From IMG/VR virus record IMGVR_UViG_3300027798_000017, positions 59,253 through 123,252 of that record: a DNA stretch of 64,000 bases; one strand, written 5' to 3'. Made by a program: the position numbers and the translations under genes. Each line of letters starts with the position of its first letter. Position 1 is the first letter of the stretch. Below are positions 5,328 through 64,000 of this stretch, one piece after another. The notes under the pieces are model-generated. The model saw only the letters and a program-made list of their open reading frames with translations, searched no databases and was not told the origin of the DNA. The DNA is from a virus.

Positions 5328-5356
5328 ATTAGTATTCATTTTTTTAATTATAACAT

Positions 5357-6293: not shown

Positions 6294-6493
6294 TGGAGAG
6301 TATTTGCAAACGATGTATATCAGATACAGCAATTGTGTGTGCAATGTGCACAGATGGATTAAGAGAGGACAATGTTGTCCTAAAAGGTATTTTTAATGGA
6401 TCAAAACCAATAAGATCATGGGAGAAAGTAAAACAAAAAAAGGAAGTATCAACCTTAAGAAAAATGATGCAAAGTCTAAAGAGACACTTTTAA
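6290..6493 (+). CDS. Small Zn-ribbon-like protein
   Basis: CKRC...CAMC pair; ATGA coupling. Confidence 0.55.
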   Translation: MMESICKRCISDTAIVCAMCTDGLREDNVVLKGIFNGSKPIRSWEKVKQKKEVSTLRKMMQSLKRHF

Positions 6494-6810: not shown

Positions 6811-6909
6811 ATATTTTGCAGTGGTTGTAAAAAGACCATGAAGGTGGGTGTGTACATGACGTATGCATCCACTTTTTTATGGATAGTATTCACAATTAAA
6901 TTTAATCAA

Positions 6910-7179
6910 ATGAGTATAAGTAAAAGAATTAACAAACTTGAAGAAAAGAAACTCAAGTACATGAATGAACTAGAAGATCTACATATATCTGAACCATCTG
7001 AAAAGTGGTACAAGGAACGTAGGTATGAGCTAGAATCTCAAATTGGAATGATTGAATCTGTTATTCATGATTTAGAATCTGAACAAAAGATGATGCGTCC
7101 ATTTTTTTGGACATTATTAGGATTTATTTTTATTGCTGGTATTATAGTATTGTACAGATTTGTTAAATTAAAAATGTAG
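6910..7179 (+). CDS. Coiled-coil protein with C-terminal TM helix
   Basis: FFWTLLGFIFIAGIIVLY near the C-terminus. Confidence 0.7.
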   Translation: MSISKRINKLEEKKLKYMNELEDLHISEPSEKWYKERRYELESQIGMIESVIHDLESEQKMMRPFFWTLLGFIFIAGIIVLYRFVKLKM

Positions 7180-7183
7180 TATT

Positions 7184-7420
7184 ATGAGAACTGACGTAGA
7201 TGTCATTGAATCTGTAATTGGATTTGATTTGAATGTTACAATAACGTATTGTAATGAAGATGGCGTAGAAACTCCAATTAGTAATAAATGTAGATCTGTT
7301 CCTTATTTAGGAGATGAAAAAGCAAATGTTGGAACCTCAACAGCTTATTGTAACTTTTTTACCAATTTTAATCAAGCGTTGCTGAGCAAAATCAAAGATT
7401 ATCAATCAATAAATTATTAA
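7184..7420 (+). CDS. Hypothetical protein
   Basis: ORF in a tightly packed operon. Confidence 0.65.
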   Translation: MRTDVDVIESVIGFDLNVTITYCNEDGVETPISNKCRSVPYLGDEKANVGTSTAYCNFFTNFNQALLSKIKDYQSINY

Positions 7421-7421
7421 A

Positions 7422-7640
7422 ATGGGCAGAATGAAAGAGTTATTCATGCAACTGCGTGAAAAAGAAGAGGAACAAGATCCATATGATGGATTAGATGACG
7501 CTTACTGGCAAGATAGAGCCAGATATCAAGAACTTTATGAGAAAGAGCTTCGTGAAGAAATGAACAGAGATGCTGAGTTGCCAGACAACAAGAAAATTCC
7601 ACCATGTTCAGCGCATGATTTTGAAAATCCTTTACCATAA
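7422..7640 (+). CDS. Hypothetical acidic protein (MGRMKELFM...)
   Basis: ORF; N-terminus typical of small Bacteroidota-phage proteins. Confidence 0.7.
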   Translation: MGRMKELFMQLREKEEEQDPYDGLDDAYWQDRARYQELYEKELREEMNRDAELPDNKKIPPCSAHDFENPLP

Positions 7641-7643
7641 AGT

Positions 7644-44560: not shown

Positions 44561-47500
44561 TTATTGATTACGTTTTAGTACATCAATTTTATAATTTGGA
44601 TCAAGTATATCTCTAAAGTTTTTAAGACCAGTTAAATCTACAAAATCTTTTCCAAATTTTGCATCACCCTTTTCATAAGCTCCTGATTTTCTTGAATAGA
44701 AAGCATCTTTCCAAACTTCCTGATACAATTCAGAATCATAATTTGGATCTGGTTCTTCACCACCATTCATTGTCATAGCCATGCCATATTTTAAACCATG
44801 GTTGAGCATCTTAATTGTTGCTGAGAATTCACGTACAAATGGTATTGCTGTAGTAAAATTCTTAACATACTCCTGAGAACCTTCTCCAACTGGAAACATA
44901 GAAACAGTTTCTGCTTTTGTACCCCAAATAACTCTTATTGCATTACCTTCAAGTATACTCAACTCCTCATCATCATCATCTCTACGCCTTACAAATGATA
45001 ATAACAACATACTAATCACTGTGAGCAATGCCATTGCAATTGCATCACGTCTTGCATGATGCACACGTTTTGAATAAAAATCTCCAGCATCAACTGTCTT
45101 AACAACAGTACCTGTTTTTGGATCTTTTATTACATATGTTTTTACACCACCTGAAAGTCCCATCTTAGAAAGTGTATCTGAACCCACAAGAAATTCTTTC
45201 ATAGTATTTCCAACACCAAAAAGTTTCATTGCTCTTCCAAAAGCTCTCCAATATCCAATTGATACTTCTGAACCTTCCCAGTTAGGACGCAAGTATCCAA
45301 ATCTATTTAAGAATTGTGGAACCAAGAATTTTCTAAAAAAGAAAACCATCTTACCAAGTACCCTACTTTCAAATTCTGTTTGATCTGCACTAGCATAGTT
45401 ACCTTGTGCTCTACGCATTTCTGAATAAATAATATTTCTTATACGCTTTTCATCTTCTTTAGTATAGTTTACATCATTTCTGATAACCAAGTTTCCATCA
45501 ACATCTTTAATGTATGCCTCATGAGATGACACCATTACAATTTCACCTTTAGCATCACGTTTAAAGATCTTATCACCTGTAATAGGATCAATGCTTTCAA
45601 TTTGTTCAAATTTATAGTTATTCATTATTGCATACATTACTGTAACTGCAATTTCTGTATCACCTTTATCTTGAAGCATATATCCAAGATCACCAATAGA
45701 TGTTAATTTCTCAGCAAGCCTGCGTCCTTTTGAACCTGATGAATCTTGAAAGTATTTAATAATATCTTTTTGTGCAGGATTCATCATTCTATAAAGCATT
45801 GTTGTTTCAGACAAGTCAGATATGCGTCCCCAATCCTTAAGATAGTTTGACAAAAATCCACTGTATCCATATACTTTACCTTTTGCAAAAAGCCAATCTT
45901 TCTTACTGTAGTGTGCGCTATCGCTACCACCAGCAGCTAAAAAAGCTTGAACATTACCTGACGTATAGTTTTTTGTTTGATTGGCAATGTCAAATCCAAT
46001 TCTGATAAAACTAGTGTACTTAAAGAATCCATCAATAACTTTTTTTGTAGCTCTACCAGCATCAGTTGTGTTTTCAGTTATACCATACAAGAACTTCTTG
46101 TTTTCAAATTCAACAATCTTTAAAAGATTATCTATCTCAGCAAGTTTTTTCTCTATGTCAATTTTTGTTTTTTCTCCAGTTTTTTCATCTGTAACATAAA
46201 TCTCACCTTTCAAACGATCCTTTGCCAATTGATTACGCTGCAGTTTCATAAACTCAATAAATCCCTTAGATACAGGTGCAACTTCTTGCATAGAAATGTT
46301 CATGTGAGCTTCAGTAGTCCACTTCATAAAAGAACCAATCGCATCTGAAGATTGTATTTCTTCTCCTAATTGATTAGAAAAACGCATTCTTATACGTGAA
46401 CTAATATCACCATAAATGTTTTCTGACATATCTTGTTGACCCATTGCTTTAAAATGCTTGTCAACAAATGACTTATACTGTTTAGAAAAACCTTTTCCAA
46501 AACTCTCATTTGCAATACCTTCTATCAAAGATGACGCAAATCCTGGAACTTGGTATCCAATTTTTCTACCTTCAATTTTCTTTTGTAAATCAAAGTATAT
46601 ATCCATCATGCTATTATAAAAATCAAACTGTTCTTTGTTATTTAAAAGCTGAAGATATTTATCACTAATGTTTTTACTTGGACCAGCTTTAGGATCAATA
46701 TAATAATGACCATCACTGTCTACTTTTATTTCTTTTGGTAATGGAACACCTTCAGGTCCTTTTATAAAATTTGGATTGTAAGCTCCTGGTTTCATATTCA
46801 ATCTACCAGAAACATGAAGTGCTTTTATATTTTCAGGATCTTCTTGTAATTCTTCTATTTGTGCATTTGATAATCTTTTGTCATCCAGTGTCCAGTTACC
46901 AAGACGTAAACGTTTTACTTTATAATATTTTGGATTTGGTACTTGTTCCATGTACTTATCTACAACAGTAGCTGAAGGAAGTCTTTCAAAGTTAAATGAT
47001 TTAGGAACCTTGTATGCTCTTAAATCTTTTTTAACTGTGATACTTTCATACTTATTGTAATGATTTTTTTCAAACCATGTTTGAAATTCACCTTCTACTC
47101 TACCAAATCTAGTAACAGCAAATATAACATCATCTTCAGCTGCTTGTATATCAGCATCCACACCTTTATTTCTTGCAAGTGTGAGATTGTTTTGTGATAA
47201 CACAATCTGAGTATAAGCATTCTCAAGAATTCTATATCTAGTGTCAAACTCTTTATTGTAAATTGGATTAATTTCAAATGAAACAAGTTTTCTTATTTCT
47301 TGAGTTATCCTTGCAACTTCTCTTTTTTCATCTTTTGTAAGAGTTGAAGGTGTGCCTTTTTTACCTTCAATGATATCTTCTATTTCAGCCTCAATAGAAT
47401 CAAGTTCCATAACTTCCTCATCAGTCAAATACTTAGGATTAAATCTTCCTGCATTTTTGTAAGGAGCCATGATACGTTTTTTTCTATCAAACAACTCTTT

Positions 47501-50500
47501 AATTTCAGGATCACTTGAAAGATACTCTGCACGTTGGTCATATAATTCACTTACTGCTTCATACCAATCAGCTGTTGGACGTGTTACTGTATTTAAACCA
47601 TACCATTTGTCAAGTTTTTCTTTGTCATCAGAGTAAAGCACCTTAGCATTTTTCTCCATAACCCTGAAAAAGTTATCATTGGTATCATACTCATACAACT
47701 CATCAAGTTTTTCCATGTACTCAGCATACTCAGGACTACGTTCCATTGCTTGTAAACGTAAATCTTTTAATGCAGCATCAAGTTCTTGAAGTCTGTCAAA
47801 ATCCATTTCTTCAAGTAAAACTTCATTACCTCTACCAACACTGTGTAAAATTACTTCTTGCTCAAGATATATCTTCTGCATTGCATCACGTATATCTTCA
47901 GGAAGCTTTAATTGTAAATTATAAAATTCATCAACATATGGTAGATTGGCATTATTCAACATCCACTCAATCATACCATTATTATGATTATCTCTCTCAG
48001 CTTTTTTATCGTTGTATTTTTGTTCTGCGTCTGCTTTTTCTGGTGTATTAAACTTCTCATTATACACAGCACGCAATTCATATACTTCTTTATTCAGTAT
48101 ACGTAGCTTTTGTTGGAATCCTTTGTATGTGTTTTCATACTCAGCACTGAAAGGTTTAATATAAGTAAGTATTTTTTTACTTGTTATCTCACCAGTTTTT
48201 GAATCATAAAAAGATACTTCACGCCATTCTGAAACTGCTTTATTCAAATCCTCAACAGAAAAACCTTTGTCAAGAAGTTGTCTACGTAATCTATCAAACT
48301 TTTGTAGTTTGGCATCATTCATTACATTGTATTCTGCTTGAGATTTAAAATCTTTGAGCATTGTTGTAAATGCAGAAATTGCCAAGTCAGAATTTGATGC
48401 TGAGGCAATAGCAGAATCCATCATCCAACCACCAAGTATTGTATCAGAACCAGCATAAGGATTTGGCATACCAGCATAAAAAGGTTGTGTATGATCAGTA
48501 ACCCCACTAATGTATTTCTCCATTGCTTCTTCTGAGAATTCAAATCCTTGAAGTAACATTTCAATTTGCATAATACGTTTTTCAACTCTTGATATTTCTG
48601 CAAGTACAATAGAGCCATTAGGACCCATTGCTTCTTTTACTTTTTCTCTAAAGTTTTTGTTTGTAAGACTAAAGAATTTAATTTTTGCTTGCTTGTATAA
48701 CCCAAGTTTAGGATTTGTTTTTAATTTTTCAGCTTCTTCATTTAAGCGTTCTAATTCTATTTCAAGTGCTTGGCGTTTTTGTTCATTTACTTTACCAAAT
48801 ACAGATTCACCTGGAGACATCATTACTGTAACAGCATTGGCCATACCAATTTTCTTCCAGTCTGATTGTATTTGTTCTGCATAGATTGTAAGTTGTGTCA
48901 ATCGTTGTCTCACAGGACTATCTACACCAATTTTGTTTTCTTCATTTTCTGCAGCCTCATTAACAATCTGATTCATTACTTCAATTACAGCGTCAAGTAC
49001 TACACTTTTATTAAATGCTTCACGTACCTTATCAAGATTACGTATTTTGTCATTTGGTGAACCAGTCATGTATGCATCAAGAGCCATTCTTGAAATTTTG
49101 CTCATTGTCTCCAAGTCTTGCTCCATAACATTAAGAGCATTAAAAAAGTTAGCGGAGTTTACAAGTGCATTTGGATTTGTAGTTTTAAGTTTGTCTACAA
49201 TTTTCTTAAAGTTATTCAGTGTATCTCTACGCGCAGCAAGAAGTTCTTCATACTTTTTATCGCGATTAGGTTTGTTTTTTGCTTCATTAATATCTTCATA
49301 AATCTTTGCAATTTGTCCATCAATAATGTCATCAAGAACTTTGACAAAATCTTTCATGTTTTTATCAGTAGGATTAATGTCAAATAATTCTTCTGGTGAT
49401 TTACTTTTTATTTCTTCTTCAGTAAATTCACCTGTTGGTATTTCAATAGCAGCTGCACGTTTTACTTTAAACACAACATCATTTGTTGAATCAACATTTG
49501 AGAACCAATAACCATCTGTAGTTAATCTTGCACTACGTGCTTGATCATAATACTCCTGATCTTCAAATACATGAAGTACACTAGCAACATATGAATTATC
49601 ATTTTCATCAATCTGATACATTAAAGATGATATAGTTTTATTTGCTACATCAATGCCTCCTTGTTTCAGGATGTTGTCATAAATATCTAACTGCATCATC
49701 CATACATCATATGTAGAACGCAAAGATATTTTTTGAAATTCTGTTGCTACGCCAGGTGTATTAGCAATTGGATACCTTTTGTTGGCTAGTTCTATGAGAG
49801 CCTTGTCAACTACAACTTCATTTTGTCCACTGAATGGATTTCGCTCAGTAAGATACTTAATCTTTTTAGTTTTAAAGTCATAGATATGAACACGTCCCAC
49901 TGAGTCAATCATCAAAATATCAAGACGCCCAATAACCTTACTACCAGAAAGAGATGTTCCAACAATTGTAACCTCTGGAAGTATCACATAACCACTAGCA
50001 TTTTTACTATTAACATGCTGTACTAATCCAAATGCCATCTCATACATCTCTTCTTTTGTAAGTTTCTGTATTTCAAATGGATTTTTTTTAGTGTATGCCT
50101 CATAAGCTTTTTCAAAAAACTCCTCATTGTAAATTTGAGCAATTGTTTTACCTGACTTCAGTGCCTCAACCTGTCCAATTTCAAGCAACTCATGCATAAA
50201 TGTACCAAACAGTTTGAATGCTTCATATTCTTTTGGATCACCTTTAAAGTCAGAAGAACCAATGAACTTGGATACACTTAACGTTTTTTCAATAGGGCTA
50301 CCATTTTTTGCTGCTTCAATGTTTGAGTTAAGAAAATCTTGATATAAATCATTCATCTCTATTAGTTTCTCTATAGTGGCACGTTGTGCAAGATTTGAAC
50401 GTAGTTTTACTGTTTCCAACATTGCTCGCTGCTGCACTGATCTGCTTAACTTAAACTGATCTGATGCAAGAGAAAGTTGTTCATCCTTATCCTGAATACG

Positions 50501-50647
50501 CAATTGTTTTAATAAATCTTTTGCTTTGTCAACAGATGGAATCTCATTATTATTTATAACAAACGCAGTCATTGCATCTGCTTCATTACCTAAAGCTATT
50601 AGTAAATCTTTCCAGGCTTGGTCATTTATATTTGGACATGCACTCAT
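44561..50647 (-). CDS. Giant virion cargo/ejection protein (2028 aa) with N-terminal PD-(D/E)xK-like domain and C-terminal hydrophobic helix
   Basis: GTFMHELLE...GRLDILMID..G.VHIYDFKT...QLDIY; C-terminal QGNY, FFFRKFL.P...RFG, AMALLTVISMLLLSFV. Confidence 0.85.
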   Translation of the reverse strand: MSACPNINDQAWKDLLIALGNEADAMTAFVINNNEIPSVDKAKDLLKQLRIQDKDEQLSLASDQFKLSRSVQQRAMLETVKLRSNLAQRATIEKLIEMNDLYQDFLNSNIEAAKNGSPIEKTLSVSKFIGSSDFKGDPKEYEAFKLFGTFMHELLEIGQVEALKSGKTIAQIYNEEFFEKAYEAYTKKNPFEIQKLTKEEMYEMAFGLVQHVNSKNASGYVILPEVTIVGTSLSGSKVIGRLDILMIDSVGRVHIYDFKTKKIKYLTERNPFSGQNEVVVDKALIELANKRYPIANTPGVATEFQKISLRSTYDVWMMQLDIYDNILKQGGIDVANKTISSLMYQIDENDNSYVASVLHVFEDQEYYDQARSARLTTDGYWFSNVDSTNDVVFKVKRAAAIEIPTGEFTEEEIKSKSPEELFDINPTDKNMKDFVKVLDDIIDGQIAKIYEDINEAKNKPNRDKKYEELLAARRDTLNNFKKIVDKLKTTNPNALVNSANFFNALNVMEQDLETMSKISRMALDAYMTGSPNDKIRNLDKVREAFNKSVVLDAVIEVMNQIVNEAAENEENKIGVDSPVRQRLTQLTIYAEQIQSDWKKIGMANAVTVMMSPGESVFGKVNEQKRQALEIELERLNEEAEKLKTNPKLGLYKQAKIKFFSLTNKNFREKVKEAMGPNGSIVLAEISRVEKRIMQIEMLLQGFEFSEEAMEKYISGVTDHTQPFYAGMPNPYAGSDTILGGWMMDSAIASASNSDLAISAFTTMLKDFKSQAEYNVMNDAKLQKFDRLRRQLLDKGFSVEDLNKAVSEWREVSFYDSKTGEITSKKILTYIKPFSAEYENTYKGFQQKLRILNKEVYELRAVYNEKFNTPEKADAEQKYNDKKAERDNHNNGMIEWMLNNANLPYVDEFYNLQLKLPEDIRDAMQKIYLEQEVILHSVGRGNEVLLEEMDFDRLQELDAALKDLRLQAMERSPEYAEYMEKLDELYEYDTNDNFFRVMEKNAKVLYSDDKEKLDKWYGLNTVTRPTADWYEAVSELYDQRAEYLSSDPEIKELFDRKKRIMAPYKNAGRFNPKYLTDEEVMELDSIEAEIEDIIEGKKGTPSTLTKDEKREVARITQEIRKLVSFEINPIYNKEFDTRYRILENAYTQIVLSQNNLTLARNKGVDADIQAAEDDVIFAVTRFGRVEGEFQTWFEKNHYNKYESITVKKDLRAYKVPKSFNFERLPSATVVDKYMEQVPNPKYYKVKRLRLGNWTLDDKRLSNAQIEELQEDPENIKALHVSGRLNMKPGAYNPNFIKGPEGVPLPKEIKVDSDGHYYIDPKAGPSKNISDKYLQLLNNKEQFDFYNSMMDIYFDLQKKIEGRKIGYQVPGFASSLIEGIANESFGKGFSKQYKSFVDKHFKAMGQQDMSENIYGDISSRIRMRFSNQLGEEIQSSDAIGSFMKWTTEAHMNISMQEVAPVSKGFIEFMKLQRNQLAKDRLKGEIYVTDEKTGEKTKIDIEKKLAEIDNLLKIVEFENKKFLYGITENTTDAGRATKKVIDGFFKYTSFIRIGFDIANQTKNYTSGNVQAFLAAGGSDSAHYSKKDWLFAKGKVYGYSGFLSNYLKDWGRISDLSETTMLYRMMNPAQKDIIKYFQDSSGSKGRRLAEKLTSIGDLGYMLQDKGDTEIAVTVMYAIMNNYKFEQIESIDPITGDKIFKRDAKGEIVMVSSHEAYIKDVDGNLVIRNDVNYTKEDEKRIRNIIYSEMRRAQGNYASADQTEFESRVLGKMVFFFRKFLVPQFLNRFGYLRPNWEGSEVSIGYWRAFGRAMKLFGVGNTMKEFLVGSDTLSKMGLSGGVKTYVIKDPKTGTVVKTVDAGDFYSKRVHHARRDAIAMALLTVISMLLLSFVRRRDDDDEELSILEGNAIRVIWGTKAETVSMFPVGEGSQEYVKNFTTAIPFVREFSATIKMLNHGLKYGMAMTMNGGEEPDPNYDSELYQEVWKDAFYSRKSGAYEKGDAKFGKDFVDLTGLKNFRDILDPNYKIDVLKRNQ

Positions 50648-50648
50648 C

Positions 50649-51236
50649 TTATAAACATTTTATTTTTTCAAGTATCTCATCATTAGTGTAGTTCATGCCA
50701 CGTAAGTTTGTTGCTAAGTCTTTAGCAGCTTGTGCAAACTTATCAATACGCATTCTTTTACTACCATCACTATAAAGATACTCAATTACTGCTGGAGTTA
50801 GTTCTAGGTTTGCCATATCTTCATACATATCATAAAGAGGATTACTAGATTCTTCATTGTCAAAAAGATAATCATCATCATACTCTATACCTGCACGCTC
50901 AGCATCAGCACGTTGTATTGCGCGTGCCTCTTGTTCAGTAACAGCTTTCAAGTATTCATTGTAATAAACAGTGACAATATCCTGAGATGGATTAAAAACA
51001 ATCTCTTGACCATTGCTCATCTCATTACGATATGCGATATTACCCTTAAAATCTTTATTAGTTTTATTGACTATACTTTCAGCAACCTTGTAAACTTGTG
51101 ATTTGCCACTAGGAAATGCCTCATTAGAAATAAACAATCTATCAAAAGAAGTCTGTTGAACATTCTTTGAAACATGTGGTGCAATTGCTTTTTTTGTAAT
51201 TGCTTTTTTAATATCTGTTCTACATTTTAGTGCCAT
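50649..51236 (-). CDS. Small cargo-locus protein (195 aa), MALKC...KIKCL
   Basis: Fills the gap between the two giant genes with 2-nt and 1-nt spacers. Confidence 0.8.
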   Translation of the reverse strand: MALKCRTDIKKAITKKAIAPHVSKNVQQTSFDRLFISNEAFPSGKSQVYKVAESIVNKTNKDFKGNIAYRNEMSNGQEIVFNPSQDIVTVYYNEYLKAVTEQEARAIQRADAERAGIEYDDDYLFDNEESSNPLYDMYEDMANLELTPAVIEYLYSDGSKRMRIDKFAQAAKDLATNLRGMNYTNDEILEKIKCL

Positions 51237-51238
51237 AC

Positions 51239-57200: not shown

Positions 57201-60200
57201 TCAAGTAAATCTTTAGGATCTATTTCATTAAATGGTACTTGATTTTTTGCAAGATCAATTAAATCTTCATTTAATGAAGCATTTTCATCATTCTCAAAAA
57301 AGTCACTTAGAATATTAAATTTGTATGCTCTCAAGTCTTTGCTGTCTACATTAATAGTAACACCATCGTCTTCTAGTACAGCATTATATTTATTTACAAG
57401 TTCATTACTTTTACCACTTTCATAATCACGTTTTAGATCAAGTCTGCGTGCCCATTCACGTGACATTCTGTTATACTCCTGACCAACAATACCAACAAGA
57501 TCTTCTACAATTTTTAAATGTTTACCTTGATATAGTATTTGACCTCTATCATTTGTTTCCTTTTTATCTTTTGATGTAAAAGGTTCATATAATGCAGATA
57601 TCAAAAAGTTTGTAGATGTTGCTTCTAATTGATGAAAAGATCTAAAGTAAGTTGTTACTTCTGTACCAGCTTTATTAGCAGTTGTTTTTCTATCCATGAA
57701 AGCAAGAATCTGCAACATGTGCAATGATCTTTCATCTACTGATTTAAACGTTTGTCCTTTTTTAGCTACATCCCCAATACGTTGTTGAACACCACCAAAC
57801 ATTGCAACTGTAAAGTTTTGCAAAAATAAGTTTATTTTTTCTGTGTCCTTGTTGACTTCGCCTTTTAGTAAGCCACCAAGTAAAACATTATCTTCCAAAA
57901 ATGTTCTAAGCGTGTTCTCATAGTAAGGATCATCTGCTAGTGCTTCTTCTAAAGTCATTGTTTGCAAACGCTGACCAAGCATGATTAATGGATTGTATTT
58001 TGCAAAACGAAATATTGATTTTCCTTCTGCATTCTTAATTACACTAGGAATATCTGTTGGATCATATTTAACAGCATACGCAGATGCTTTTTTCAAAATA
58101 ACAAGCAAACGTTTTGCATCTTTATTTTTTGTTTTGTCATCGTCCAGTATATTTCTAATACGTGAGTTTGGTGCTCCTGATTCCAAGTATGCAGAATCAA
58201 GTATAGCTACTAAACTTCTGAAAAAATCTTTCTCAAGATACTGTTGCTGTTTTACAAAGCTTTCGTTTATATCATAAAACTTTTGTATTTTTAAATCTAC
58301 ATCATTTGTTACTTTGTTTTCTTCAGCATTCATTGCCAAAATGGAAAGCTCAACTAATGATCTAGGAACAGTCATTCCAATTGTTGTCAACGCATTGTGA
58401 ACTTGATTTGTCAATTGCTCTAACTTGAGTGTTTGACCAAATTGACTTGACAATATATCTGGAGTACTCATGAATGTAGTACCAAAAGTTTTTAAGAATT
58501 GTACTGCATCTTTAAACTCCTGAGTTGATGCTTCAGTAGAATGTTTTTTAATGAAGTTAGCTACTATGTCATTACGTTTTTTTGTAATGTCAGCATCCAT
58601 AACTTTATCAAACATCCTAAATGTAACATCTTTTTCTTGAAGTGCACTTTCAATATTACCACCTTGCACTTCATCTATTACAACTTTCTTAGGTGATGCT
58701 ACATTAAACATTACATAGTTTAGTTCTACGCCATGTAGCACTTCAGTAATCAAATTTAAAAGTTGCTTGTTTGTTTGTGCAACACCTTGAGAATCAGCTT
58801 TTGTTCTTGTCTGAATCTCATCATAAATTATTTTTAAATCTTTACCTACTGCTTCAAATCCATCTTTAATCATCTGCTCAGACATAATACCAATCGTATC
58901 AATGATATTTTTTGGCTGTACGCTTGCTGTAATTTTTAGTAATGTTGGAAATAAAACTTGACCATCAATCATACGTGGAAAGTTGACACCTGTTTCAGCA
59001 TCAAACTCATCACTTCTTAATGTTGAAAAGAATCTTCTTATTTGAGAAACATATGAATCCATTCTGTTTTGCTCACCCATTCCTGAATCAAAATCATTGT
59101 TCTCAACTTCTTCTTTTGCAGAAACTCTTTCGTCATCTTGTACTTCATTTGCATTTTCACCAGTAAATGTATTTTCTATTTCATCAGTGTCAAGTGTAAA
59201 CTCATCATTATCGCGTTGTATTTTAACAGAGTTTGCTTTATCATATTTATCTTTGGTAAGTCTAGACAAAACTTCAAATGAATATTGACCCATTGTATTG
59301 TCTATGGTTTCACCATTGATAAGACTTTCACCATTCTTTTCTGATTTATTATCAAATTTAATGTCACCTGTAAGATTGATATCATTTACATTTAAACCTT
59401 TCATTCTACCTCCAAGTATAAACCTGTAAGTAGATATTATTTGACTATACTTTTGTTCTATTAAATCACGCTTTTCAGGATTTTGAGCAACAAGTTTTTC
59501 CATGCTGTATACTTCATTTAGCACTTTGTCAACAGCACGTTGGAATCTTATATCAAATGTGTCTGATTGAACATTATCCTGAAACATTACACCAACCACC
59601 ATATTAATCAACTGATCCTGTTCTCCTGGTGATAGTACAGACTTTGCTCTTGCAACATTACCTTCCTCATTCAAATAGAATTGTTTAAGTCCTGGTATAA
59701 GCTCATACGCAACTTGCCCATTGTATATGTTTGACTTGATTGATGCTGTTTTGTAGTATCCACGTTTTACGCGACCATACACATAATCAATTTCATTCTT
59801 ATTTCTGACAAAGAAGTTAATTAATTTTTTCAACATGTCAAAGAATTTCTGCATTGCTGTTTTAGGAGCTGTCTTTCTTTCTTTGCCCATGTAGTTTTGA
59901 AAACCATCTGCAAGTATCTCTTCAGCAATAAGTTCTACAAGCGTGTCGTAATTTGTAACAGACATGTTTCTAACTCTTGCAAACTCCTTAACATTTTCTG
60001 CTGAAAACTTAGCAGAATGTTTTGGATCATCCATTACCTGTTTGATCAAAGCTTTACGCTCATTCTCAGAAAGAAGATATCTAAACACACCGTGGAATGC
60101 CTCATGAAAAACAGTTCCTTTTGCTGTAACAACATCATTAAGATATATTACTTTGTCCTTAAACATACCTAGTACTGTGCCATCAATACGTGCAAGATTA

Positions 60201-63200
60201 ATTATGTCACGCATTGAAGTTGCATCAATGCCAAACTGAGGTAAGTTTTCTGCCAACCACTCTGCTTCAGATGCTATATCTTCTTTTGTTGCTACTTCAA
60301 AATCTGAATCAAGAGTAATAGAAAATGGTGGTATATCAATAACATCATCATCCTCACTTTCTGCTTCATCAGTATTATCTTGTTTTGTTACATCTTCTTT
60401 ACCTGTATCACTTAATGGAAGTGGAGCATCAGTTGGATTCTCTGGTGTAATTTTTACTGGAGCATTTTCCTTTTCTGCTACTTCATTTATAATATCCTTT
60501 TCTGCTTGAGTATGATCCATGTTCTCAGTAGCTTCATCAGCTTTTGCAACATTTACTGCAGACTTTGCAACAAGTTTAAAAGAACGTCTACCTGATGACT
60601 CAAGTATCTTTACATTTTTTAAAGATTTGTTGTAAGTTGAGCGAGCGTTATATGGATCACCTGCATTATCTGGAGATACAATATTTAGTATTTGTCTACC
60701 TTCAGCATTTTCATATGCAAATAAGTTATCTACTGTAAAGTTTTCTGCAAAGTCTTCTTTCAATGCTTCAAGAAATTCATCAAAAACACCCTTTCCAGTT
60801 TGTTCATTTGTTGGATTTTCTTTAAAACGTTTTGTCACAGTATCCATTACAAGAGTTGTAAAGTTGTTCTGAGCATCTACTACGTTTTTAGCTAATTCTT
60901 TTACACTGTCAGGTGTTGTAGGCAATTGTGCCAAATCATAAACAGCAGTATAAAACTCAAGAAGTTGTTCTGGATTGTTTAAATCTAAACTAGCCAATGA
61001 TGGAACTTCCATCTTTACACGCTGTACAGTTGCACCTTCTTTTAGTGCTTTAGCTAACTTGTTGATTTCAGCTTCTGGAAGCACAATGTTATATGCAGCC
61101 TTTGTACCAGAATCTACAATAATTTTTTGATACTTTTCTCTTGCTGCACCTTTACTAAATGGACGTATTTCAATTTGTAATTGACTTTGTTTTAATGGTG
61201 AGCCTTTAACAGTCATTGGAGCAGATACTGCAAATCCAATACTTAACGCCATACCTTTGCCACCTTTTACTGCTATAGGTTGGAATTGATACGTGTTGCG
61301 ATCCATTTGTTCAACAGCCTTACCCTTTGTCTTACCAGTAGACTGATTACTAATAACATCAGATACAATTGTAATAAACTTTGCAAAGAATTCTGGATTT
61401 TCTAATTGCCATACAGATTGAGCTATTGCATACGTTATTGTACCATCTGCTCTAAACTTGATAACAAAGTTTGGAGTTTTGTTTGCTTTATACGTATCTT
61501 GTCCATTATTTATAAGACTAAGCAAACGTTCATCTTCAGCCTTAAACATTTCTCTAATCTGTGGCTCAAGATTCATTTGATTTGAATACTCTATCTCAGT
61601 TAAATACACAGCCTTTCCATCAGGAGTTTTTACCTGAATACGCTCATTACCAGATAATAACTTTACTTGTTTGTAGATTATTGATTTCATTTTATAATCA
61701 ACAACCTTTGTATAGTAAAATGGTAATTTGCGTTCTTCTTCTATGGTTATTTCACCATTTGAATTTAAAGTTACAACTGTAACAACCTTACTCATTTGAG
61801 GATTTTTTTCTATTATTTCCTTAAGTGATGTTTTTACAGGAGTTGTTGATCTTGAATTTGTAAAATCATACATCTGCATAAATTCATCAGTAACTTCTAC
61901 TGATGTACCTGAAGCAAATGCATTTTTTATTTTATATGAAATCTTATCTTTAAATTCTTGAAACAATTTCTGAGAAGCAACAAGAGATGTAATATCTGAT
62001 TCTTGCATGTTTTCAGTAACAGCTCCAGTTCTTTTTAAAGACAATGCTTTTAAAAGTTCTAAATGTCCTGGGTTGGACATGTCAAGTCTTTCTGTTGTAT
62101 TATCTGCTGAGACAAATACAAAGTTGTCCATTGAATAAATATGAAACTTTGAACCAGTAGAAAGTATCTCTCCAACTAATGCAAAGTCCTGCTCACTAGC
62201 TTTTGGACGTGACACAGTTAATACTTTTGCATTTGGATCAGACTCAAGTTGTGCAACCTGAGTTGAGTTCTCAAATGTTTCATGATTTCTATTTATTAAT
62301 CCAGCTTTCTGAGGATCATCATTTGCTACTTCTTTCATACGAGCAACACGCATATCACCAAGTTCACTTAATCTTACAGCAGTTATCTTTACACCTGAAG
62401 AAGGTGACGCCATTTTATTTAATTCAGTAGTAACAACTTCTTGTTCAGCTGGATCAATTGCACTTATAGATAATCCTGATAAAAGAAAATCTTCTTTGAA
62501 AACTTGCTTACCATCATTTGAGTCTGAAAAATCTGCAGGACGTGCATCTTTTTTGTTAATGACATCTGTCATATCTAGTTCAACAACTGAACTATCATCT
62601 TCAACTTGAAACAAAACACCATCAACTCCTAAAACTTCAATCATACGCCCATCGCTAAATGTCACAAGAACATTAGAAAGCTCTGCTTCTTCAGCTATTG
62701 AGTTTATTGATATATAAGATGACTTTGGTTGTAACGTGTCTATAAAACTATCTATCTGATTAAACAACACTTGTTTATATGCAGTGTCTACATTAGATAA
62801 GTTTGTGATAACATCTTTTAATGCACCACGTATTTGATCTATTGCTTCAGTTTTATCATCAATAGTTTCAAATTTATGAGTGTTAATATAATTTTTAAGC
62901 AACGTAAGAGTTGGAATTATATCCTGTGGTGTAATCAATCTTTGATTTGCAAGTTTATCTATTGCAGTTGATACACCTTCAAAAGTTTGCAATCTTGGTT
63001 TTTTAATTTCAAGAATAACAAATGCATTTTTTACATAGTCCTTAGTATCATCAATTTTTGTGACAAGGTTGATAATATCAACACCCTTGCCAATTGTATA
63101 TTTTGTTTCATCTAAACCAGAAAGCCCATTGTAAATATGAGCCATGTTATGTAGAGCTAATTTCTTTTGCTCATCTGTTAAATCTGCTTCAAGAATAAAC

Positions 63201-63298
63201 TTTGCAGCATTGTCAAAGTTTCTATATATTTCTGGATTTAACTTAATTAAGTTTTCTACTACAGGTATATATTGTTCAGTAGTTAATGCACATGCCAT
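51239..63298 (-). CDS. Virion RNA polymerase polyprotein (4019 aa), crAss-like two-barrel type, with zincin-like domain
   Basis: Catalytic GSDFDIDSL (about 55043-55057), upstream TRIPT, DGQS, KR..K; HEAFH...EEILAD.F zincin motif (60092-60106); ADGAKDP. Confidence 0.92.
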   Translation of the reverse strand: MACALTTEQYIPVVENLIKLNPEIYRNFDNAAKFILEADLTDEQKKLALHNMAHIYNGLSGLDETKYTIGKGVDIINLVTKIDDTKDYVKNAFVILEIKKPRLQTFEGVSTAIDKLANQRLITPQDIIPTLTLLKNYINTHKFETIDDKTEAIDQIRGALKDVITNLSNVDTAYKQVLFNQIDSFIDTLQPKSSYISINSIAEEAELSNVLVTFSDGRMIEVLGVDGVLFQVEDDSSVVELDMTDVINKKDARPADFSDSNDGKQVFKEDFLLSGLSISAIDPAEQEVVTTELNKMASPSSGVKITAVRLSELGDMRVARMKEVANDDPQKAGLINRNHETFENSTQVAQLESDPNAKVLTVSRPKASEQDFALVGEILSTGSKFHIYSMDNFVFVSADNTTERLDMSNPGHLELLKALSLKRTGAVTENMQESDITSLVASQKLFQEFKDKISYKIKNAFASGTSVEVTDEFMQMYDFTNSRSTTPVKTSLKEIIEKNPQMSKVVTVVTLNSNGEITIEEERKLPFYYTKVVDYKMKSIIYKQVKLLSGNERIQVKTPDGKAVYLTEIEYSNQMNLEPQIREMFKAEDERLLSLINNGQDTYKANKTPNFVIKFRADGTITYAIAQSVWQLENPEFFAKFITIVSDVISNQSTGKTKGKAVEQMDRNTYQFQPIAVKGGKGMALSIGFAVSAPMTVKGSPLKQSQLQIEIRPFSKGAAREKYQKIIVDSGTKAAYNIVLPEAEINKLAKALKEGATVQRVKMEVPSLASLDLNNPEQLLEFYTAVYDLAQLPTTPDSVKELAKNVVDAQNNFTTLVMDTVTKRFKENPTNEQTGKGVFDEFLEALKEDFAENFTVDNLFAYENAEGRQILNIVSPDNAGDPYNARSTYNKSLKNVKILESSGRRSFKLVAKSAVNVAKADEATENMDHTQAEKDIINEVAEKENAPVKITPENPTDAPLPLSDTGKEDVTKQDNTDEAESEDDDVIDIPPFSITLDSDFEVATKEDIASEAEWLAENLPQFGIDATSMRDIINLARIDGTVLGMFKDKVIYLNDVVTAKGTVFHEAFHGVFRYLLSENERKALIKQVMDDPKHSAKFSAENVKEFARVRNMSVTNYDTLVELIAEEILADGFQNYMGKERKTAPKTAMQKFFDMLKKLINFFVRNKNEIDYVYGRVKRGYYKTASIKSNIYNGQVAYELIPGLKQFYLNEEGNVARAKSVLSPGEQDQLINMVVGVMFQDNVQSDTFDIRFQRAVDKVLNEVYSMEKLVAQNPEKRDLIEQKYSQIISTYRFILGGRMKGLNVNDINLTGDIKFDNKSEKNGESLINGETIDNTMGQYSFEVLSRLTKDKYDKANSVKIQRDNDEFTLDTDEIENTFTGENANEVQDDERVSAKEEVENNDFDSGMGEQNRMDSYVSQIRRFFSTLRSDEFDAETGVNFPRMIDGQVLFPTLLKITASVQPKNIIDTIGIMSEQMIKDGFEAVGKDLKIIYDEIQTRTKADSQGVAQTNKQLLNLITEVLHGVELNYVMFNVASPKKVVIDEVQGGNIESALQEKDVTFRMFDKVMDADITKKRNDIVANFIKKHSTEASTQEFKDAVQFLKTFGTTFMSTPDILSSQFGQTLKLEQLTNQVHNALTTIGMTVPRSLVELSILAMNAEENKVTNDVDLKIQKFYDINESFVKQQQYLEKDFFRSLVAILDSAYLESGAPNSRIRNILDDDKTKNKDAKRLLVILKKASAYAVKYDPTDIPSVIKNAEGKSIFRFAKYNPLIMLGQRLQTMTLEEALADDPYYENTLRTFLEDNVLLGGLLKGEVNKDTEKINLFLQNFTVAMFGGVQQRIGDVAKKGQTFKSVDERSLHMLQILAFMDRKTTANKAGTEVTTYFRSFHQLEATSTNFLISALYEPFTSKDKKETNDRGQILYQGKHLKIVEDLVGIVGQEYNRMSREWARRLDLKRDYESGKSNELVNKYNAVLEDDGVTINVDSKDLRAYKFNILSDFFENDENASLNEDLIDLAKNQVPFNEIDPKDLLEALDEYARKEFQAYLDTLEKLGAITKVSIPVGKEIVDPRPGAKVKFPTQYYTSDMLPKTISQGYAASDKTKISDAYNQPYGAKADSALDPIENLLFDMFMGNWRNSLHLNQLMDGDMALNVKNAQDYVKRLKKIVASGSNMKDGTHRVAYMNTITGFIHEQMPQYGPYYSSGEIISDFTIPSELVREQLLEGYEKAIDGVKESINGSTVKWADMMREVFDGQSISTLMHQMDMHDTLGRLDERGMYILIAKHYRALTEQETKYLESMKIVNNAKKTITADRNIYHKLSEGYIDRTDVSTLIIKPNTDESVADATARVYDELHGLYMQAYDLRKDRELASTEADTINETARINTEIENVYKSIHEYYEPMPHRKILHDILSSMEIFQIDQLMDTTSSKNATLLPLDVMKAERTESGYINFRMAALDVPNSAKYLQVETSGVKDKAKHSVQAKMLLPANIAEDQFREVIEIEARKAGDILTEDDILSIENVKRSLNDYQLSLRKSTKARLLYFTEVLRKGDDFELGKIFTMIRESLQLQSAPKNILDMFAVKPDGKPVFSPNLSLIRTTLEYYMIAQYSKNVTDEKVSGFKNFHESSFGYNVLVDPATNQVITTEEYAANPEAFKDRKLRSRPLGVSIETQADGSKIYFVEAIIPKPFFENQQQEAFYKQNLTKMFATRIPTEDKRSMIVIKVVDYVDSSKMNNIIVPHFVHLLSGSDFDIDSLFGRMMSYYKNGKGNYNLYGDYSQYKDIDTGQFIEFMHYMSKHEDIGPLIKQRKKELIEQGTIEMPMGGALFEIIENLGFTIEDLTEHFDQKIVKSKYTDQKDFTSYMFELTKESKDFYVNAKELAEQNPENRELAKTRNAYGRELGDLKAIRKQSVDEQRVLKEKMRYIDTMFEYQSIMDVLAKFNMPSNVSQFNARPAFSEMVSPKFQNQNLAASIKILGNEAVFKYLYINQRSSTQEFKDILERFGIDLKTISKKSNLFTPTSMIESKVENNMNKDGIGRTAVMNKFLSLASQYNLKLSDKGIVWAYQKLDKSIVLKDTFGQLNENEDRVIAIIGNILGMFADGAKDPIPSALQMNEINASTTLAMIGVGLDPDFAVAFNFLPEVRKAALAVQQSQFALSEDLEQDYLFYNQAIKNQLSDLIEENEDAFNKLKSAGFFTSKSFKDFAVMDDPLAVRIGFEAQKLNIYALKNNELTPSSIGFEMVYDKTNEMLTEAEMKMVLLTFYAKQAQQTWAINRAASITNLFKRLNPSLVAFDKMRDNITELIEDEKLFTKESAAKLFEDDQVWSILKDALDDANEQFSKIFLERTPFFKPITNAFKGYFEDPKTVANTLTSFLSLNKFKMTFPASRTSDNEYVQSIYDKDDEMILKTFSPEYWFTNDLFAQVEKFREKYPKNEFLKLLRSADSKNTATVIYNGKSYQGINERFISMISKAKVKGDYAGKVADAIAQLYNSGMVEERQFIKNLFYHDVVRTGLQHKEGSFIGLMPAELLIPLSGYIQEFIDGIQNVTTSPNFEEAFENFIKAYTGETTDTGVVTFFDEMFTQLAYAASSENNNQKIPKFKNKGKDGKMNTRSVVFSVNFKKPQFSKPLVKAFLDQSVTPDSESLTTAKVKAINFTLDALDLQLPESIDLAKTDVINIADALTDEFTIRLSNKNEKANVTLGKMFGVVKDMSEPDSSEYVFPSILRIGIKTFVLQGVDGNAAGGKSIGSNLYDSIVGKTTLTNVGTYAKYSVIPDQYASEALSPIAFTTENANAYKRYIDKKEAIVFNTNIIDTAKKDEKISTTVNENVKIPDDLKDPTENVIIEQDPSKDQLEKNAGDIVDGISSEKGASKSQIEFGNDLLDQLLKNVMGEGTSNVSEVPKLQRGRYVKYNGETYIVTKQNEDGTWQIYNPLLEGAKAKISVAETNMKTLEMIAKIIEYKDSEYIVTSKNTIISLTTNKKMMWGENDGNRKAILGLAGQNKTIIKPTNRPSIDPTDENNC

Positions 63299-63309
63299 TT
63301 CTTAAGAGT

Positions 63310-64000
63310 TTATTTAAAACAAGAATTTATCTTTCTCAATTGGTCAAGGACTGTATCTTCAGACACTTGTTCCTCACTAACAAATTTACTATTTTTTTGT
63401 GACATAGCCTGAGCAACTCTTACTGATGATTCATTAATTGCAGTTAATCTGGCAGCAGATAGTTCTTCTTTAGCTTTAGTAATATTAGCATCAATTTCTG
63501 TTGTGTCTACTTTAACGAGTGTTGCAGTTGTAGATCCTACTTTATTATTTATTGTATTTGAATTAGCATAAAATACCTCTGCTTTTTTTTCAACTACAAA
63601 TCCATCACCTTCTTTTTTTAAAATTCCAGGTTTTACAGTTACAATAATATTATTAGATCCTTGTGGATTTAACTCTTGAGTTACTGGTTTTATAAATCTT
63701 ATTGAATTACTAAGCATTCTATCAGATGAACTATCAGGTAGTATCCTGTATTCAAATTTACCATTACCTATTGGCCTTATTTCATACATACTACCACCTT
63801 TAATCAATTTAGTATCCAATTCACCAAATTTATTTTCACCAAGAGGCATAGATAAATAACCACTAGTATCTGGCCACTTCTCATTAATTAATTCTTGATA
63901 TGTTTTTCCAGTGGTTGATTGAGTAGGTTGAGCTTTTAATAAGTCTTGTTTTTGTTTTTCTAAAGATTCTATCTCAGCTTGTTTTCTTTTTAAATCAGCT
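63310..64000 (-). CDS. C-terminal part of another cargo-locus protein (start lies beyond the window)
   Basis: Frame stays open from 63849 to the window end (ADLKRKQAEIESLEKQ...); ends KINSCFK. Confidence 0.8.
   Translation of the reverse strand, partial: ADLKRKQAEIESLEKQKQDLLKAQPTQSTTGKTYQELINEKWPDTSGYLSMPLGENKFGELDTKLIKGGSMYEIRPIGNGKFEYRILPDSSSDRMLSNSIRFIKPVTQELNPQGSNNIIVTVKPGILKKEGDGFVVEKKAEVFYANSNTINNKVGSTTATLVKVDTTEIDANITKAKEELSAARLTAINESSVRVAQAMSQKNSKFVSEEQVSEDTVLDQLRKINSCFK

What the first reader, a model, noticed from the sequence alone, without database searches (positions are those of the whole stretch)
44561..64000. Terminal-cysteine daisy chain across four consecutive virion cargo/RNAP proteins
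Seen (manual scan of the translations): the 4019-aa vRNAP has exactly two Cys, residue 3 (MAC) and the last residue (DENNC). The 195-aa protein has two, residue 5 (MALKC) and the penultimate (KIKCL). The 2028-aa protein has one, residue 4 (MSACP), and none at its C-terminus. The visible 229 aa of the upstream gene has one, third from the end (NSCFK). That is six Cys in about 6,470 residues, all within five residues of a terminus. They form three C-end/N-end pairs that follow gene order, and the last gene lacks the unpaired C-terminal Cys. Other proteins here (RNR, PolB, tailspike) have ordinary or high Cys content. Established: N4 virion RNAP is cysteine-free, and crAss-like phages package and eject their giant RNAP-locus proteins. 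Inference: the proteins are joined head-to-tail by disulfides (or a Cys-dependent metal or thioester link) into one ordered chain that threads through the tail and is released in the reducing cytoplasm. The 195-aa protein would then be a modular link that can be inserted only because it carries both connectors.
Basis: partly seen in the sequence, partly recalled or inferred. Interest (0 to 1): 0.92.

Follow-up and report, generated by a model that had tools for sequence, protein, structure and literature searches.

The report
Cysteine couplers linking phage cargo proteins
Four consecutive proteins that this crAss-like phage probably carries in its particle, including its giant RNA polymerase, have cysteines only at the ends that face the neighbouring protein; the whole phage order keeps this rule, which suggests, though it is not yet shown, that disulfide bonds string the proteins together until they reach the host cytoplasm.

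Summary
The upstream gene is complete at 2001 aa and has one Cys, third from its end. The chain 2001-4019-195-2028 aa therefore holds 6 Cys in 8,243 residues, all within 5 residues of a terminus, as three C-end/N-end pairs in gene order.

The rule holds in distant homologues:
- Giant protein: 119/119 have a C-terminal Cys and 112/119 an N-terminal Cys.
- 2028 family: 59/60 have an N-terminal Cys, 0/60 a C-terminal one.
- 2001 family: 84/87 have a C-terminal Cys, 0/87 an N-terminal one.

Across related loci, adjacent genes pair strongly: 94 both, 144 neither, 14 mismatched. Natural fusions lack the pair.

The cultured phages phi14:2 and crAss001, and the metagenome-assembled prototype crAssphage, show the same rule. 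In crAss001 the partner genes lie on opposite strands.

No searched paper describes this for crassviruses. Cryo-EM of cyanopodophage A4 shows exactly such a bond (gp27 Cys1715 to gp26 Cys5; PMC12002296, passages read).

The disulfide here, and any threading or reductive release, remain inferred. This scan noted the same pattern earlier on other genomes. Verdict: real and strongly non-random, a multi-link variant of a known kind.

The parts
63310..64000 (-). C-terminal 229 aa of the first chain protein. Complete, it is 2001 aa and continues past the window end into the contig start. Its only Cys is residue 1999 (codon 63319-63321), in ...RKINSCFK*.
   Evidence: P0244 is identical. In the family, 84/87 have a Cys in the last 10 residues and 0/87 in the first 10.
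51239..63298 (-). 4019-aa giant protein, with a zincin-like HEAFH motif at 60092-60106 and the RNAP motif DFDID at 55043-55057. Cys 3 (63290-63292) and Cys 4019, the last residue (51242-51244). No internal Cys.
   Evidence: Residues about 2550-2757 match annotated crAss RNAP catalytic subunits by tblastn (best E 2e-12). In the family, 119/119 have a C-terminal Cys and 112/119 an N-terminal Cys.
50649..51236 (-). 195-aa adaptor with Cys 5 (51222-51224) and Cys 194 (50655-50657). It has an N-terminal alpha/beta module (about 1-100), a flexible linker, and a helical C-module (about 133-193) ending ...EKIKCL.
   Evidence: the only invariant columns are C5, L154 and C194; AF2 mean pLDDT 81.8.
44561..50647 (-). 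2028-aa last chain protein, starting MSACPN. Cys 4 (50636-50638) is its only Cys and there is none at the C-terminus. A PD-(D/E)XK nuclease-like region lies at about residues 145-276 (window about 49820-50215).
   Evidence: phrog_1218; precomputed PF12705 in homologues. 59/60 have an N-terminal Cys and 0/60 a C-terminal Cys.

Best explanation
The four genes encode the RNA-polymerase module of a distant crAss-like phage. In the cultured relatives phi14:2 and crAss001 these proteins are packaged in the virion as cargo.

Each break between two successive proteins is flanked by one Cys near the C-end of the first protein (0-7 residues from the end) and one near the N-end of the next (position 2-10).

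Most likely, the end of one protein docks on the start of the next through cognate connector sequences: ...INSCFK with MACxxxTxxY, ...DENNC with M(AL)KCRxDIKK, and ...EKIKCL with MSACPN. Once the particle is out of the reducing cytoplasm, the two thiols oxidise to an inter-protein disulfide. The result would be a head-to-tail hetero-tetramer, 2001-4019-195-2028, with no free Cys at either outer end.

The near-total absence of internal Cys prevents wrong pairings. After ejection into the reducing host cytoplasm the links would be cut and the proteins freed.

Shown here: the Cys pattern, its conservation, the pairing of neighbours, and its loss in fusions. Shown elsewhere: one such disulfide in phage A4. 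Inferred: the disulfide in this phage, when it forms, and its release.
For: 1. Pattern and chance.

2. Conservation:
- Giant family: 119/119 with a C-terminal Cys and 112/119 with an N-terminal Cys. The 7 without are 5 N-terminally shorter entries and 2 very distant ones.
- 2028 family: 59/60 N-terminal, 0/60 C-terminal.
- 2001 family: 84/87 C-terminal, 0/87 N-terminal.
- In the adaptor alignment the two Cys are 2 of only 3 invariant columns.

3. Pairing: among 252 unique adjacent ORF pairs in loci L001-L083, 94 have both Cys, 144 neither, 11 only the upstream one and 3 only the downstream one (Fisher p = 3e-52). Of 37 unique chains not cut by a locus end, 30 have 2-4 members and no unpaired terminal Cys.

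4. Fusion and split:
- 49/119 giant homologues end in the adaptor's C-module (...KCL). In the loci seen, such a giant is followed directly by the 2028-type gene. 31 of the 49 have no internal Cys.
- In L055, L076 and L079 the 2001-type protein is fused to the giant. That ORF has no N-terminal Cys and 0-1 internal Cys.

5. The rule does not depend on gene adjacency. In crAss001 and 12 related loci the first partner is encoded on the opposite strand. In three loci other ORFs separate the partners: ferritin-like or GIY-YIG genes in L070 and L074, and two ORFs without Pfam matches in L066.

6. phi14:2 fits exactly: g067 has one Cys (last residue), g066 has Cys 3 and 2179 of 2180, g065 has one Cys (residue 3).

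7. Precedent: in A4, the C-terminal helix of gp27 sits in a cleft of gp26 and Cys1715 bonds Cys5 (PMC12002296, passages). In the A-4L record these are the only Cys of the two proteins.

8. crAss001 virions do contain disulfides in structural proteins, and their cargo must partly unfold to pass the tail (PMC10172136, passages).
Against: - There is no chemical or structural evidence for the bond in any crassvirus.
- Virions assemble in a reducing cytoplasm, so oxidation must come later. Gut crassviruses live in an anoxic habitat.
- Exceptions exist. The giant in L050/L062 has an N-terminal Cys with no adjacent partner. Prototype crAssphage gp47 (857 aa) has a lone penultimate Cys with no evident partner, and gp44 has 7 internal Cys. 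Some giant homologues have up to 6 internal Cys.
- The L051-L057 group fits only if the second in-frame ATG (MSC...) is the true start.
- No sequence similarity to A4 gp27/gp26 was found, so the precedent is an analogy, not homology.
- In A4 the bond sits inside a folded pentameric ring, not an extended thread.
- The loci are related to one another, so the Fisher p-value overstates independence.
Confidence: 0.6

Rival explanations
1. The terminal Cys pairs do join neighbours, but through something other than a disulfide, for example a shared metal ion or another Cys-dependent covalent bond.
For: The comparative data show coupling of the two Cys, not its chemistry. The giant protein carries an invariant HExxH zincin motif, so the module does handle metal.
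Against: Each junction offers only one Cys per partner, and no conserved His, Asp or second Cys lies beside them. That is too few ligands for a normal Zn or Fe site. The one solved case is a disulfide.
Confidence: 0.08
2. Each terminal Cys acts on its own: homodimers through like ends, an N-to-C disulfide within one protein, or attachment to another virion part such as the portal or capsid.
For: The giant protein and the adaptor each have one Cys at both ends, so a ring within one molecule is conceivable. crAss001 gp57 forms homodimer disulfides (PMC10172136).
Against: The first and last chain members have a single Cys. Two-member chains have one Cys per protein (L035, L047, L055 and others). 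A Cys at one end of a gene predicts a Cys at the facing end of its neighbour (94 both against 14 mismatched). Both are lost together in fusions. Independent roles predict none of this.
Confidence: 0.07
3. There is no link. Cys is purged from proteins that cross the envelope, as in N4-like phages, and is merely tolerated at disordered termini, or the terminal Cys are marks for packaging or processing.
For: Cys suppression in ejected proteins is documented for Schitoviridae and was explained there by passage through the periplasm (PMC11445570, passages). Chain proteins here hold 0.018% internal Cys.
Against: Tolerance predicts sporadic terminal Cys. What is seen is near-invariance while flanking residues change, strict pairing with the neighbour, and none at the outer ends of the chain (0/87 and 0/60). 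N4-like ejection proteins have essentially no Cys, terminal ones included.
Confidence: 0.1
4. The pattern is a nucleotide-level or gene-calling artefact of tightly coupled stop and start regions.
For: The gaps between the genes are 11, 2 and 1 nt, and all six Cys codons are TGT.
Against: The rule holds with gaps from -23 to 80 nt, with quite different flanking sequences. It also holds when the partners lie on opposite strands or are separated by inserted genes.
Confidence: 0.02

Closest known systems
Cyanopodophage A4 (Anabaena phage A-4L) ejection proteins gp27 and gp26 (PNAS 2025, PMC12002296; passages read)
   Same: The upstream ejection protein has its only Cys three residues from the C-end (1715 of 1717). 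The next-encoded protein has its only Cys at residue 5. Cryo-EM shows the two disulfide-bonded in the virion, with the C-terminal helix of gp27 docked in gp26.
   Different: A4 has one link between two proteins in a 42-kb Saffermanviridae podophage (taxonomy line of KF356198), inside a folded pentameric pre-ejectosome, with no RNA polymerase among the four ejection proteins the paper describes. Here there are three links in series, a dedicated adaptor, an RNAP in the chain, and no detectable sequence similarity. The passages read do not generalise the bond or mention Cys depletion.
RNA-polymerase module cargo proteins of Crassvirales: phi14:2 gp67-gp66-gp65 and crAss001 gp47-gp50-gp49
   Same: These share the DFDxD RNAP motif, a zincin-like domain, giant size and gene order, with weak direct similarity. 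The same terminal-Cys rule holds. The proteins were detected in virions by mass spectrometry (PMC10172136; record notes).
   Different: The window's module has four members, with zincin and RNAP in one 4019-aa protein plus a 195-aa adaptor. Break points differ between lineages. The texts I could search (Drobysheva preprint; Bayfield 2023) do not mention cargo cysteines.
Cys-free ejection operon of Schitoviridae (N4 gp50-52, DEV gp71-73; PMC11445570, passages read)
   Same: Both are giant virion RNAPs ejected with partner proteins, with strong suppression of Cys.
   Different: The N4-like proteins have essentially no Cys at all, and the RNAP is reported as a different type (recalled: T7-like single-subunit). 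No match to any PDB chain, N4 vRNAP included, was found. Here Cys is kept exactly at the facing termini.
Inter-chain disulfide of AB toxins such as diphtheria or clostridial neurotoxins (recalled textbook knowledge; no call made)
   Same: A disulfide tethers two chains during membrane translocation and is reduced in the target cytosol to free the active part.
   Different: In toxins the two chains come from one nicked polypeptide. They are not serial, not end-to-end, not a phage system and not homologous. This is a functional analogy only.

Membership tests
Crassvirales virion RNA-polymerase module | Giant protein with the DFDxD catalytic motif of two-barrel RNAPs | tested here: met
   There is a single D.D.D match in the 4019 aa: DFDID at residues 2748-2752. 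It is invariant in 36 homologues.
Crassvirales virion RNA-polymerase module | Sequence similarity to RNAP catalytic subunits of named crassviruses | tested here: met
   tblastn with residues 2100-2800 hit 64 phage records, nearly all crAss-like by name. The match is about 23-30% identical over about 90-210 residues, with best E 2e-12. BLASTP to crAssphage gp44 gave 1e-13, crAss001 gp50 4e-9 and phi14:2 g066 3e-5, in a 13-protein database. A profile search against PDB sequences found nothing.
Crassvirales virion RNA-polymerase module | Zincin-like HExxH domain within the module | tested here: met
   HEAFH at residues 1065-1069 is invariant. The region matches the C-terminal part of crAss001 gp47 (E 2e-10).
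Crassvirales virion RNA-polymerase module | The proteins are packaged in the virion and ejected | not testable with these tools
   Known only for relatives: MS of crAss001 and record notes for phi14:2.
A4-type disulfide-coupled ejection proteins | Sole Cys near the C-end of one protein and sole Cys near the N-end of the next-encoded protein | tested here: met
   for the window; for A-4L.
A4-type disulfide-coupled ejection proteins | Disulfide observed in the virion | not testable with these tools
   This needs non-reducing gels, cross-link MS or cryo-EM.
A4-type disulfide-coupled ejection proteins | Homology to A4 gp27/gp26 | tested here: not met
   BLASTP gave no hit below E 0.49. Profile searches gave nothing below 0.027 in a 4-protein database.
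Schitoviridae (N4-like) Cys-free ejection proteins | Complete absence of Cys | tested here: not met
   Six terminal Cys are present.
Polyvalent proteins of phages (concept recalled from Iyer et al. 2017; not read here) | Giant protein with variable inserted effector domains | tested here: inconclusive
   Some homologues carry precomputed Pfam hits: RNase H PF00075, PF08719, PF13532 and ART-PolyVal PF18760. The window's own protein has no Pfam hit at E of 0.01 or better.

The most novel reading that the evidence does not exclude
The terminal Cys and their flanking connector modules form a portable coupling system that encodes order. It would turn separately encoded cargo proteins into one linear, redox-cleavable pseudo-polyprotein, about 8,200 residues here. 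Every bond lies within a few residues of a chain end, so the product has no loops or long branches. It could be pulled through the tail partly unfolded, as a single thread in gene order, and then fall apart by reduction in the cytoplasm. Adaptors like the 195-aa protein would be plug-in slots. In relatives they grow to 1273 aa between the same two connectors, which would let new payloads be spliced into the ejection train without a protease or a gene fusion.
Probability: 0.3. Interest if true: 0.9.

Novelty: new variant of a known kind. Interest (0 to 1): 0.8.

Why it matters
Crassviruses are reported to be the most abundant viruses of the human gut (PMC10172136 abstract). [quoted passage not shown]

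A conserved coupler of one Cys per protein end gives a concrete hypothesis that is cheap to test for that order, for 1:1 stoichiometry, and for release. It can be tested in two cultured phages, phi14:2 and crAss001.

It would also explain why these proteins are almost free of Cys, why the module can be split or fused at different places in different lineages, and how new payloads could be added. If true, it extends the single bond seen in phage A4 to a general principle of phage protein delivery.

Tried and rejected
- Complex prediction of the 195-aa protein with residues 1-230 of the 2028-aa protein, both as alignments. The result was no verdict (score 0.13 against a mark of 0.32). It counts neither for nor against.
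- Sequence and profile searches against PDB chains. The giant protein gave 0 hits. The 2028-aa protein gave only 3 weak hits with E of 0.006 or worse, taken as chance. The profile from alignment A4 gave 0 hits. phi14:2 gp66 was not recovered this way.
- hhalign of A4 against phi14:2 gp66 gave a degenerate 2-column alignment and was disregarded. hmmsearch with default filters found nothing. With --max it found crAss001 gp47 and gp50 and crAssphage gp44.
- Pfam and PHROGs on the four proteins gave nothing except phrog_1218 "exonuclease" on the 2028-aa protein.
- blastn of the junction region against phages gave no match. tblastn with the last 999 aa of the giant gave one marginal hit.
- A Foldseek search of the adaptor model against PDB gave nothing at E of 0.001 or better.
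- Pfam on ten longer adaptors gave one sub-threshold ART-PolyVal hit.
- Recoded stop codons as the reason for "missing" partners in L059-type loci were rejected. The partners lie on the other strand.
- Homology of the window proteins to A4 gp26-29 was not found.
- Literature searches found no paper that describes terminal Cys of crassvirus cargo proteins. Only the legends of Extended Data Tables 2 and 3 of PMC10172136 were seen, so a listed cargo disulfide could have escaped me.
Full report
**Observation.** The region holds four consecutive minus-strand genes.
- The 4019-aa protein has Cys 3 and Cys 4019 (last residue).
- The 195-aa protein (ATG at 51236) has Cys 5 and Cys 194.
- The 2028-aa protein has Cys 4 only.
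- The visible 229 aa of the upstream gene have one Cys, third from the end.

The window is the last 64 kb of a 123,252-bp contig whose two ends overlap. Read across that overlap, the upstream gene is 2001 aa and has that single Cys at 1999. An identical 2001-aa protein is in the protein collection (P0244). The chain therefore starts at the C-end of the 2001-aa protein and stops at the N-end of the 2028-aa protein: six Cys in 8,243 residues, three facing pairs, none at the two outer ends. The 895-aa protein further upstream has no Cys.

**Chance.** Other ORFs of this genome hold 1.33% Cys, so about 110 would be expected in 8,243 residues. Six randomly placed Cys would all lie within 5 residues of a terminus with probability 1.3e-14.

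**Conservation.** Three searches of the 5.8-billion-protein collection and one HMMER search of cluster representatives gave these counts, with Cys scored in the first or last 10 residues.
- 2028 family: 59 of 60 have an N-terminal Cys. The exception, P0054, is 1712 aa and N-terminally shorter. 0 of 60 have a C-terminal Cys. Identity falls to 32%.
- Giant family: 119 of 119 have a C-terminal Cys and 112 of 119 an N-terminal Cys. The 7 without are 5 shorter entries and the 2 most distant hits (P0178, P0179). 73 of 119 have no internal Cys.
- 2001 family: 84 of 87 have a C-terminal Cys. The 3 without end in unrelated sequence and look truncated. 0 of 87 have an N-terminal Cys.
- Adaptor family (64 new representatives): 47 have the N-terminal Cys and 53 the C-terminal one. 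Those that lack one mostly match only the other half of the query, so they are fragments or other architectures. 60 of 64 have no internal Cys.
- In an alignment of 16 adaptors the only invariant columns are C5, L154 and C194. In 36 giant proteins C3 and C4019 are invariant.

**Pairing across genes.** A scan of viral contigs with the giant-protein alignment returned 79 loci; three more came from the adaptor. I called plus-strand ORFs mechanically:
- The start was the first ATG.
- ORFs of 90 aa or more were kept.
- ORFs more than half contained in a longer one were dropped.

I then scored unique adjacent pairs. Both ORFs had to be 130 aa or more, the gap -30 to 100 nt, neither cut at the relevant end, and duplicates with identical 15-residue flanks were removed. 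Of 252 pairs, 94 have both Cys, 144 have neither, 11 have only the upstream one and 3 only the downstream one (Fisher p = 3e-52). The loci are related, so this p-value overstates independence.

The 14 mismatches fall into groups:
- Five are the crAssphage-like group. There the first ATG is followed 14 codons later by MSC, a likely true start.
- Five rows come from three loci in which other ORFs sit between the partners: ferritin-like in L070 and L074, plus a GIY-YIG/NUMOD1 endonuclease in L070, and two unannotated ORFs in L066.
- Three are small unrelated proteins.
- One (L050) is a giant protein with an N-terminal Cys and no adjacent partner.

Sixty-one unique chains were scored after loci whose longest ORF is under 2500 aa were dropped. 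Of these, 37 are not cut by a locus end:
- 30 have 2, 3 or 4 members (4, 22 and 4) and no unpaired terminal Cys.
- 4 have one unpaired Cys. In L029 the gene starts 291 nt from the contig start, in L066 and L074 other ORFs intervene, and in L081 the partner is on the other strand.
- 3 are single proteins of the crAssphage-like group.

The coupled Cys sit at residue 3 (46 cases), 4 (42), 5 (6), 6 (4), 7 (2) or 10 (1) of the downstream protein. In the upstream protein they sit 0 (21), 1 (36), 2 (29), 3 (7), 4 (5), 5 (2) or 7 (1) residues from the end. Internal Cys frequency in chain members is 0.018%.

**Fusions and splits.**
- 49 of 119 giant homologues end in the C-module of the adaptor (...KCL; BLASTP E of 1e-3 or better). 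None contains its N-module, and 31 of the 49 have no internal Cys. In such loci the giant is followed directly by the 2028-type gene (L009, L012, L017 and others).
- In L055, L076 and L079 the 2001-type protein is fused to the front of the giant. The 2001-aa query matches the fused ORF at residues 274-499 (L055), 80-980 (L076) and 306-703 (L079), upstream of the zincin region in each case. The fused ORFs (4019, 4770 and 4191 aa) have no N-terminal Cys and 0, 0 and 1 internal Cys.
- The protein before these fused ORFs has no C-terminal Cys.

So a Cys pair is present where there is a break and absent where the peptide chain is continuous, at two different junctions.

**Cognate connectors.** The sequences around the Cys fall into matched classes. 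...[IL]xK[IL]KC[L] precedes C[PI]N-type starts whichever protein carries the C-module. ...CF[KS] precedes M-x-C-x3-T-x2-Y. Acidic ...NNC or ...DC ends precede M(x)KC[KR]xDIK or MPCKI starts. This argues for specific docking before bonding.

**Cultured and reference phages.**
- phi14:2: g067 is 1797 aa with one Cys, its last residue. g066, annotated in the record as the catalytic RNAP subunit, is 2180 aa with Cys 3 and 2179. g065 is 1421 aa with one Cys, residue 3.
- crAss001: gp47 is 2341 aa with one Cys at 2339. gp50 is 2412 aa with Cys 5, 1334 and 2404. gp49 is 1349 aa with one Cys at 5.
- In crAss001, gp47 lies on the strand opposite to gp50 and gp49. Twelve crAss001-like loci show the same convergent layout and the same Cys. 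This excludes an explanation by translational coupling or local nucleotide sequence.
- Prototype crAssphage: gp45 has Cys 1956 of 1957 plus 2 internal Cys. gp44 starts MSC and has 7 internal Cys. gp47 (857 aa) has a lone penultimate Cys without an evident partner, which is an exception.

**What the proteins are.**
- The giant protein has one D.D.D match, DFDID at 2748-2752, and an invariant HEAFH at 1065-1069. Its residues about 2550-2757 match annotated RNAP catalytic subunits of crassviruses (64 records, best E 2e-12).
- Weak similarities link the 2001-aa protein to phi14:2 g067, and the 2028-aa protein to g065 and crAss001 gp49. The E-values (7e-5 and 4e-4) come from a 13-protein database.
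- Homologues of the 2028-aa protein carry PF12705.
- There are no Pfam or PDB sequence matches for the window's own proteins.
- The phage is thus a distant crAss-like phage. The virion location of these proteins is inferred from relatives.

**The adaptor.** AF2 gives a confident alpha/beta N-module (residues about 6-97, pLDDT around 90), a weak linker (123-132) and a helical C-module ending at Cys 194. No PDB fold match was found. Relatives keep both modules and both Cys while carrying 135-1273 aa between them. The N-module also heads proteins of 1200-3700 aa.

**Literature.**
- PMC11445570 (passages) documents Cys suppression in N4-like ejection proteins and relates it to the periplasm.
- PMC10172136 (passages and the Methods section on mass spectrometry) shows gp47, gp49 and gp50 in crAss001 virions, disulfides in tail and portal-vertex proteins, and a need for partial unfolding. 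It also describes reduced and non-reduced MS samples. The word "cysteine" does not occur in its main text.
- The phi14:2 preprint has no "cysteine" or "disulfide".
- Eight searches found no paper on terminal Cys in crassvirus cargo.
- After I had the results above, a look-up of this scan's earlier notes showed that the same pattern had been noted and followed up on other genomes. It also gave the lead to PMC12002296.
- I read that paper's passages. In cyanopodophage A4 the C-terminal helix of gp27 inserts into gp26 and Cys1715 bonds Cys5. In the A-4L record gp27 (1717 aa) and gp26 (1114 aa) each have only that Cys.
- There is no sequence similarity to the window's proteins.

**Mechanism.** The best-supported reading is that cognate ends dock and are locked by one disulfide per junction once the particle leaves the reducing cell. 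This gives a head-to-tail complex in gene order that reduction in the next host cell dissolves.
- Shown: the pattern, its conservation, the pairing, the loss in fusions, and the precedent.
- Inferred: the bond itself, its timing, and its release.

Whether the linked proteins form a folded stapled body, as in A4, or travel as one thread is open. The very short overhangs beyond each Cys fit the thread idea but do not prove it.

**Limits.**
- Supplements are closed.
- Start codons were assigned mechanically.
- The loci are not phylogenetically independent.
- The one complex prediction gave no verdict.

Noticed in passing
window 60092-60106 (minus strand): An invariant zincin-like HEAFH motif (residues 1065-1069) lies inside the same 4019-aa protein as the RNAP motif DFDID. 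In crAss001 the matching region lies at the C-end of gp47, a separate protein, so the break points of the module differ between lineages.
   Followed up: partly
L070:10447-10929 and L074:17983-18471: Ferritin-like genes (PF00210, E about 1e-22) sit exactly between two chain partners in two distant loci. L070 also has a GIY-YIG/NUMOD1 endonuclease there. The Cys pair is kept on the flanking proteins.
   Followed up: partly
genome contig C1, first and last ~687 bases (window about 63314-64000): The contig's two ends overlap inside the 2001-aa gene, and the overlap is imperfect: 3 mismatches in the first 200 bases, then the register is lost. I did not resolve whether this is an assembly overlap of a circular or permuted genome or a true terminal repeat.
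   Followed up: no
L084 (BK010471.1) gp47, locus 5069-7642: Prototype crAssphage gp47 (857 aa) has a single Cys at the penultimate residue. The next protein, gp46 (857 aa), has none. This terminal Cys has no evident partner.
   Followed up: no
genome contig C1 6002-8689 and 16367-19960 (outside the window): Proteins of 895 aa and 1197 aa upstream of the chain have no Cys at all. A Cys-free protein of about 870-1000 aa precedes the chain in most related loci.
   Followed up: no
homologues P0090, P0118, P0161, P0123 and others: Giant-protein homologues carry variable inserted domains in precomputed Pfam hits: RNase H PF00075, PF08719, PF13532, ART-PolyVal PF18760 and PF25176. The giant protein appears to act as a carrier of exchangeable enzymes.
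   Followed up: no
alignment A2, rows P0181, P0192 and P0233: Longer adaptors hold an insert with a GHPTIGK[ST] stretch that looks like a P-loop. Pfam found nothing in the longer adaptors it was given, which included P0181 but not P0192 or P0233.
   Followed up: partly
window 44561-50647, C-terminus: The last chain protein ends in a strongly conserved ...RIDxLKRNQ tail without Cys across the family. Its role is unknown.
   Followed up: no
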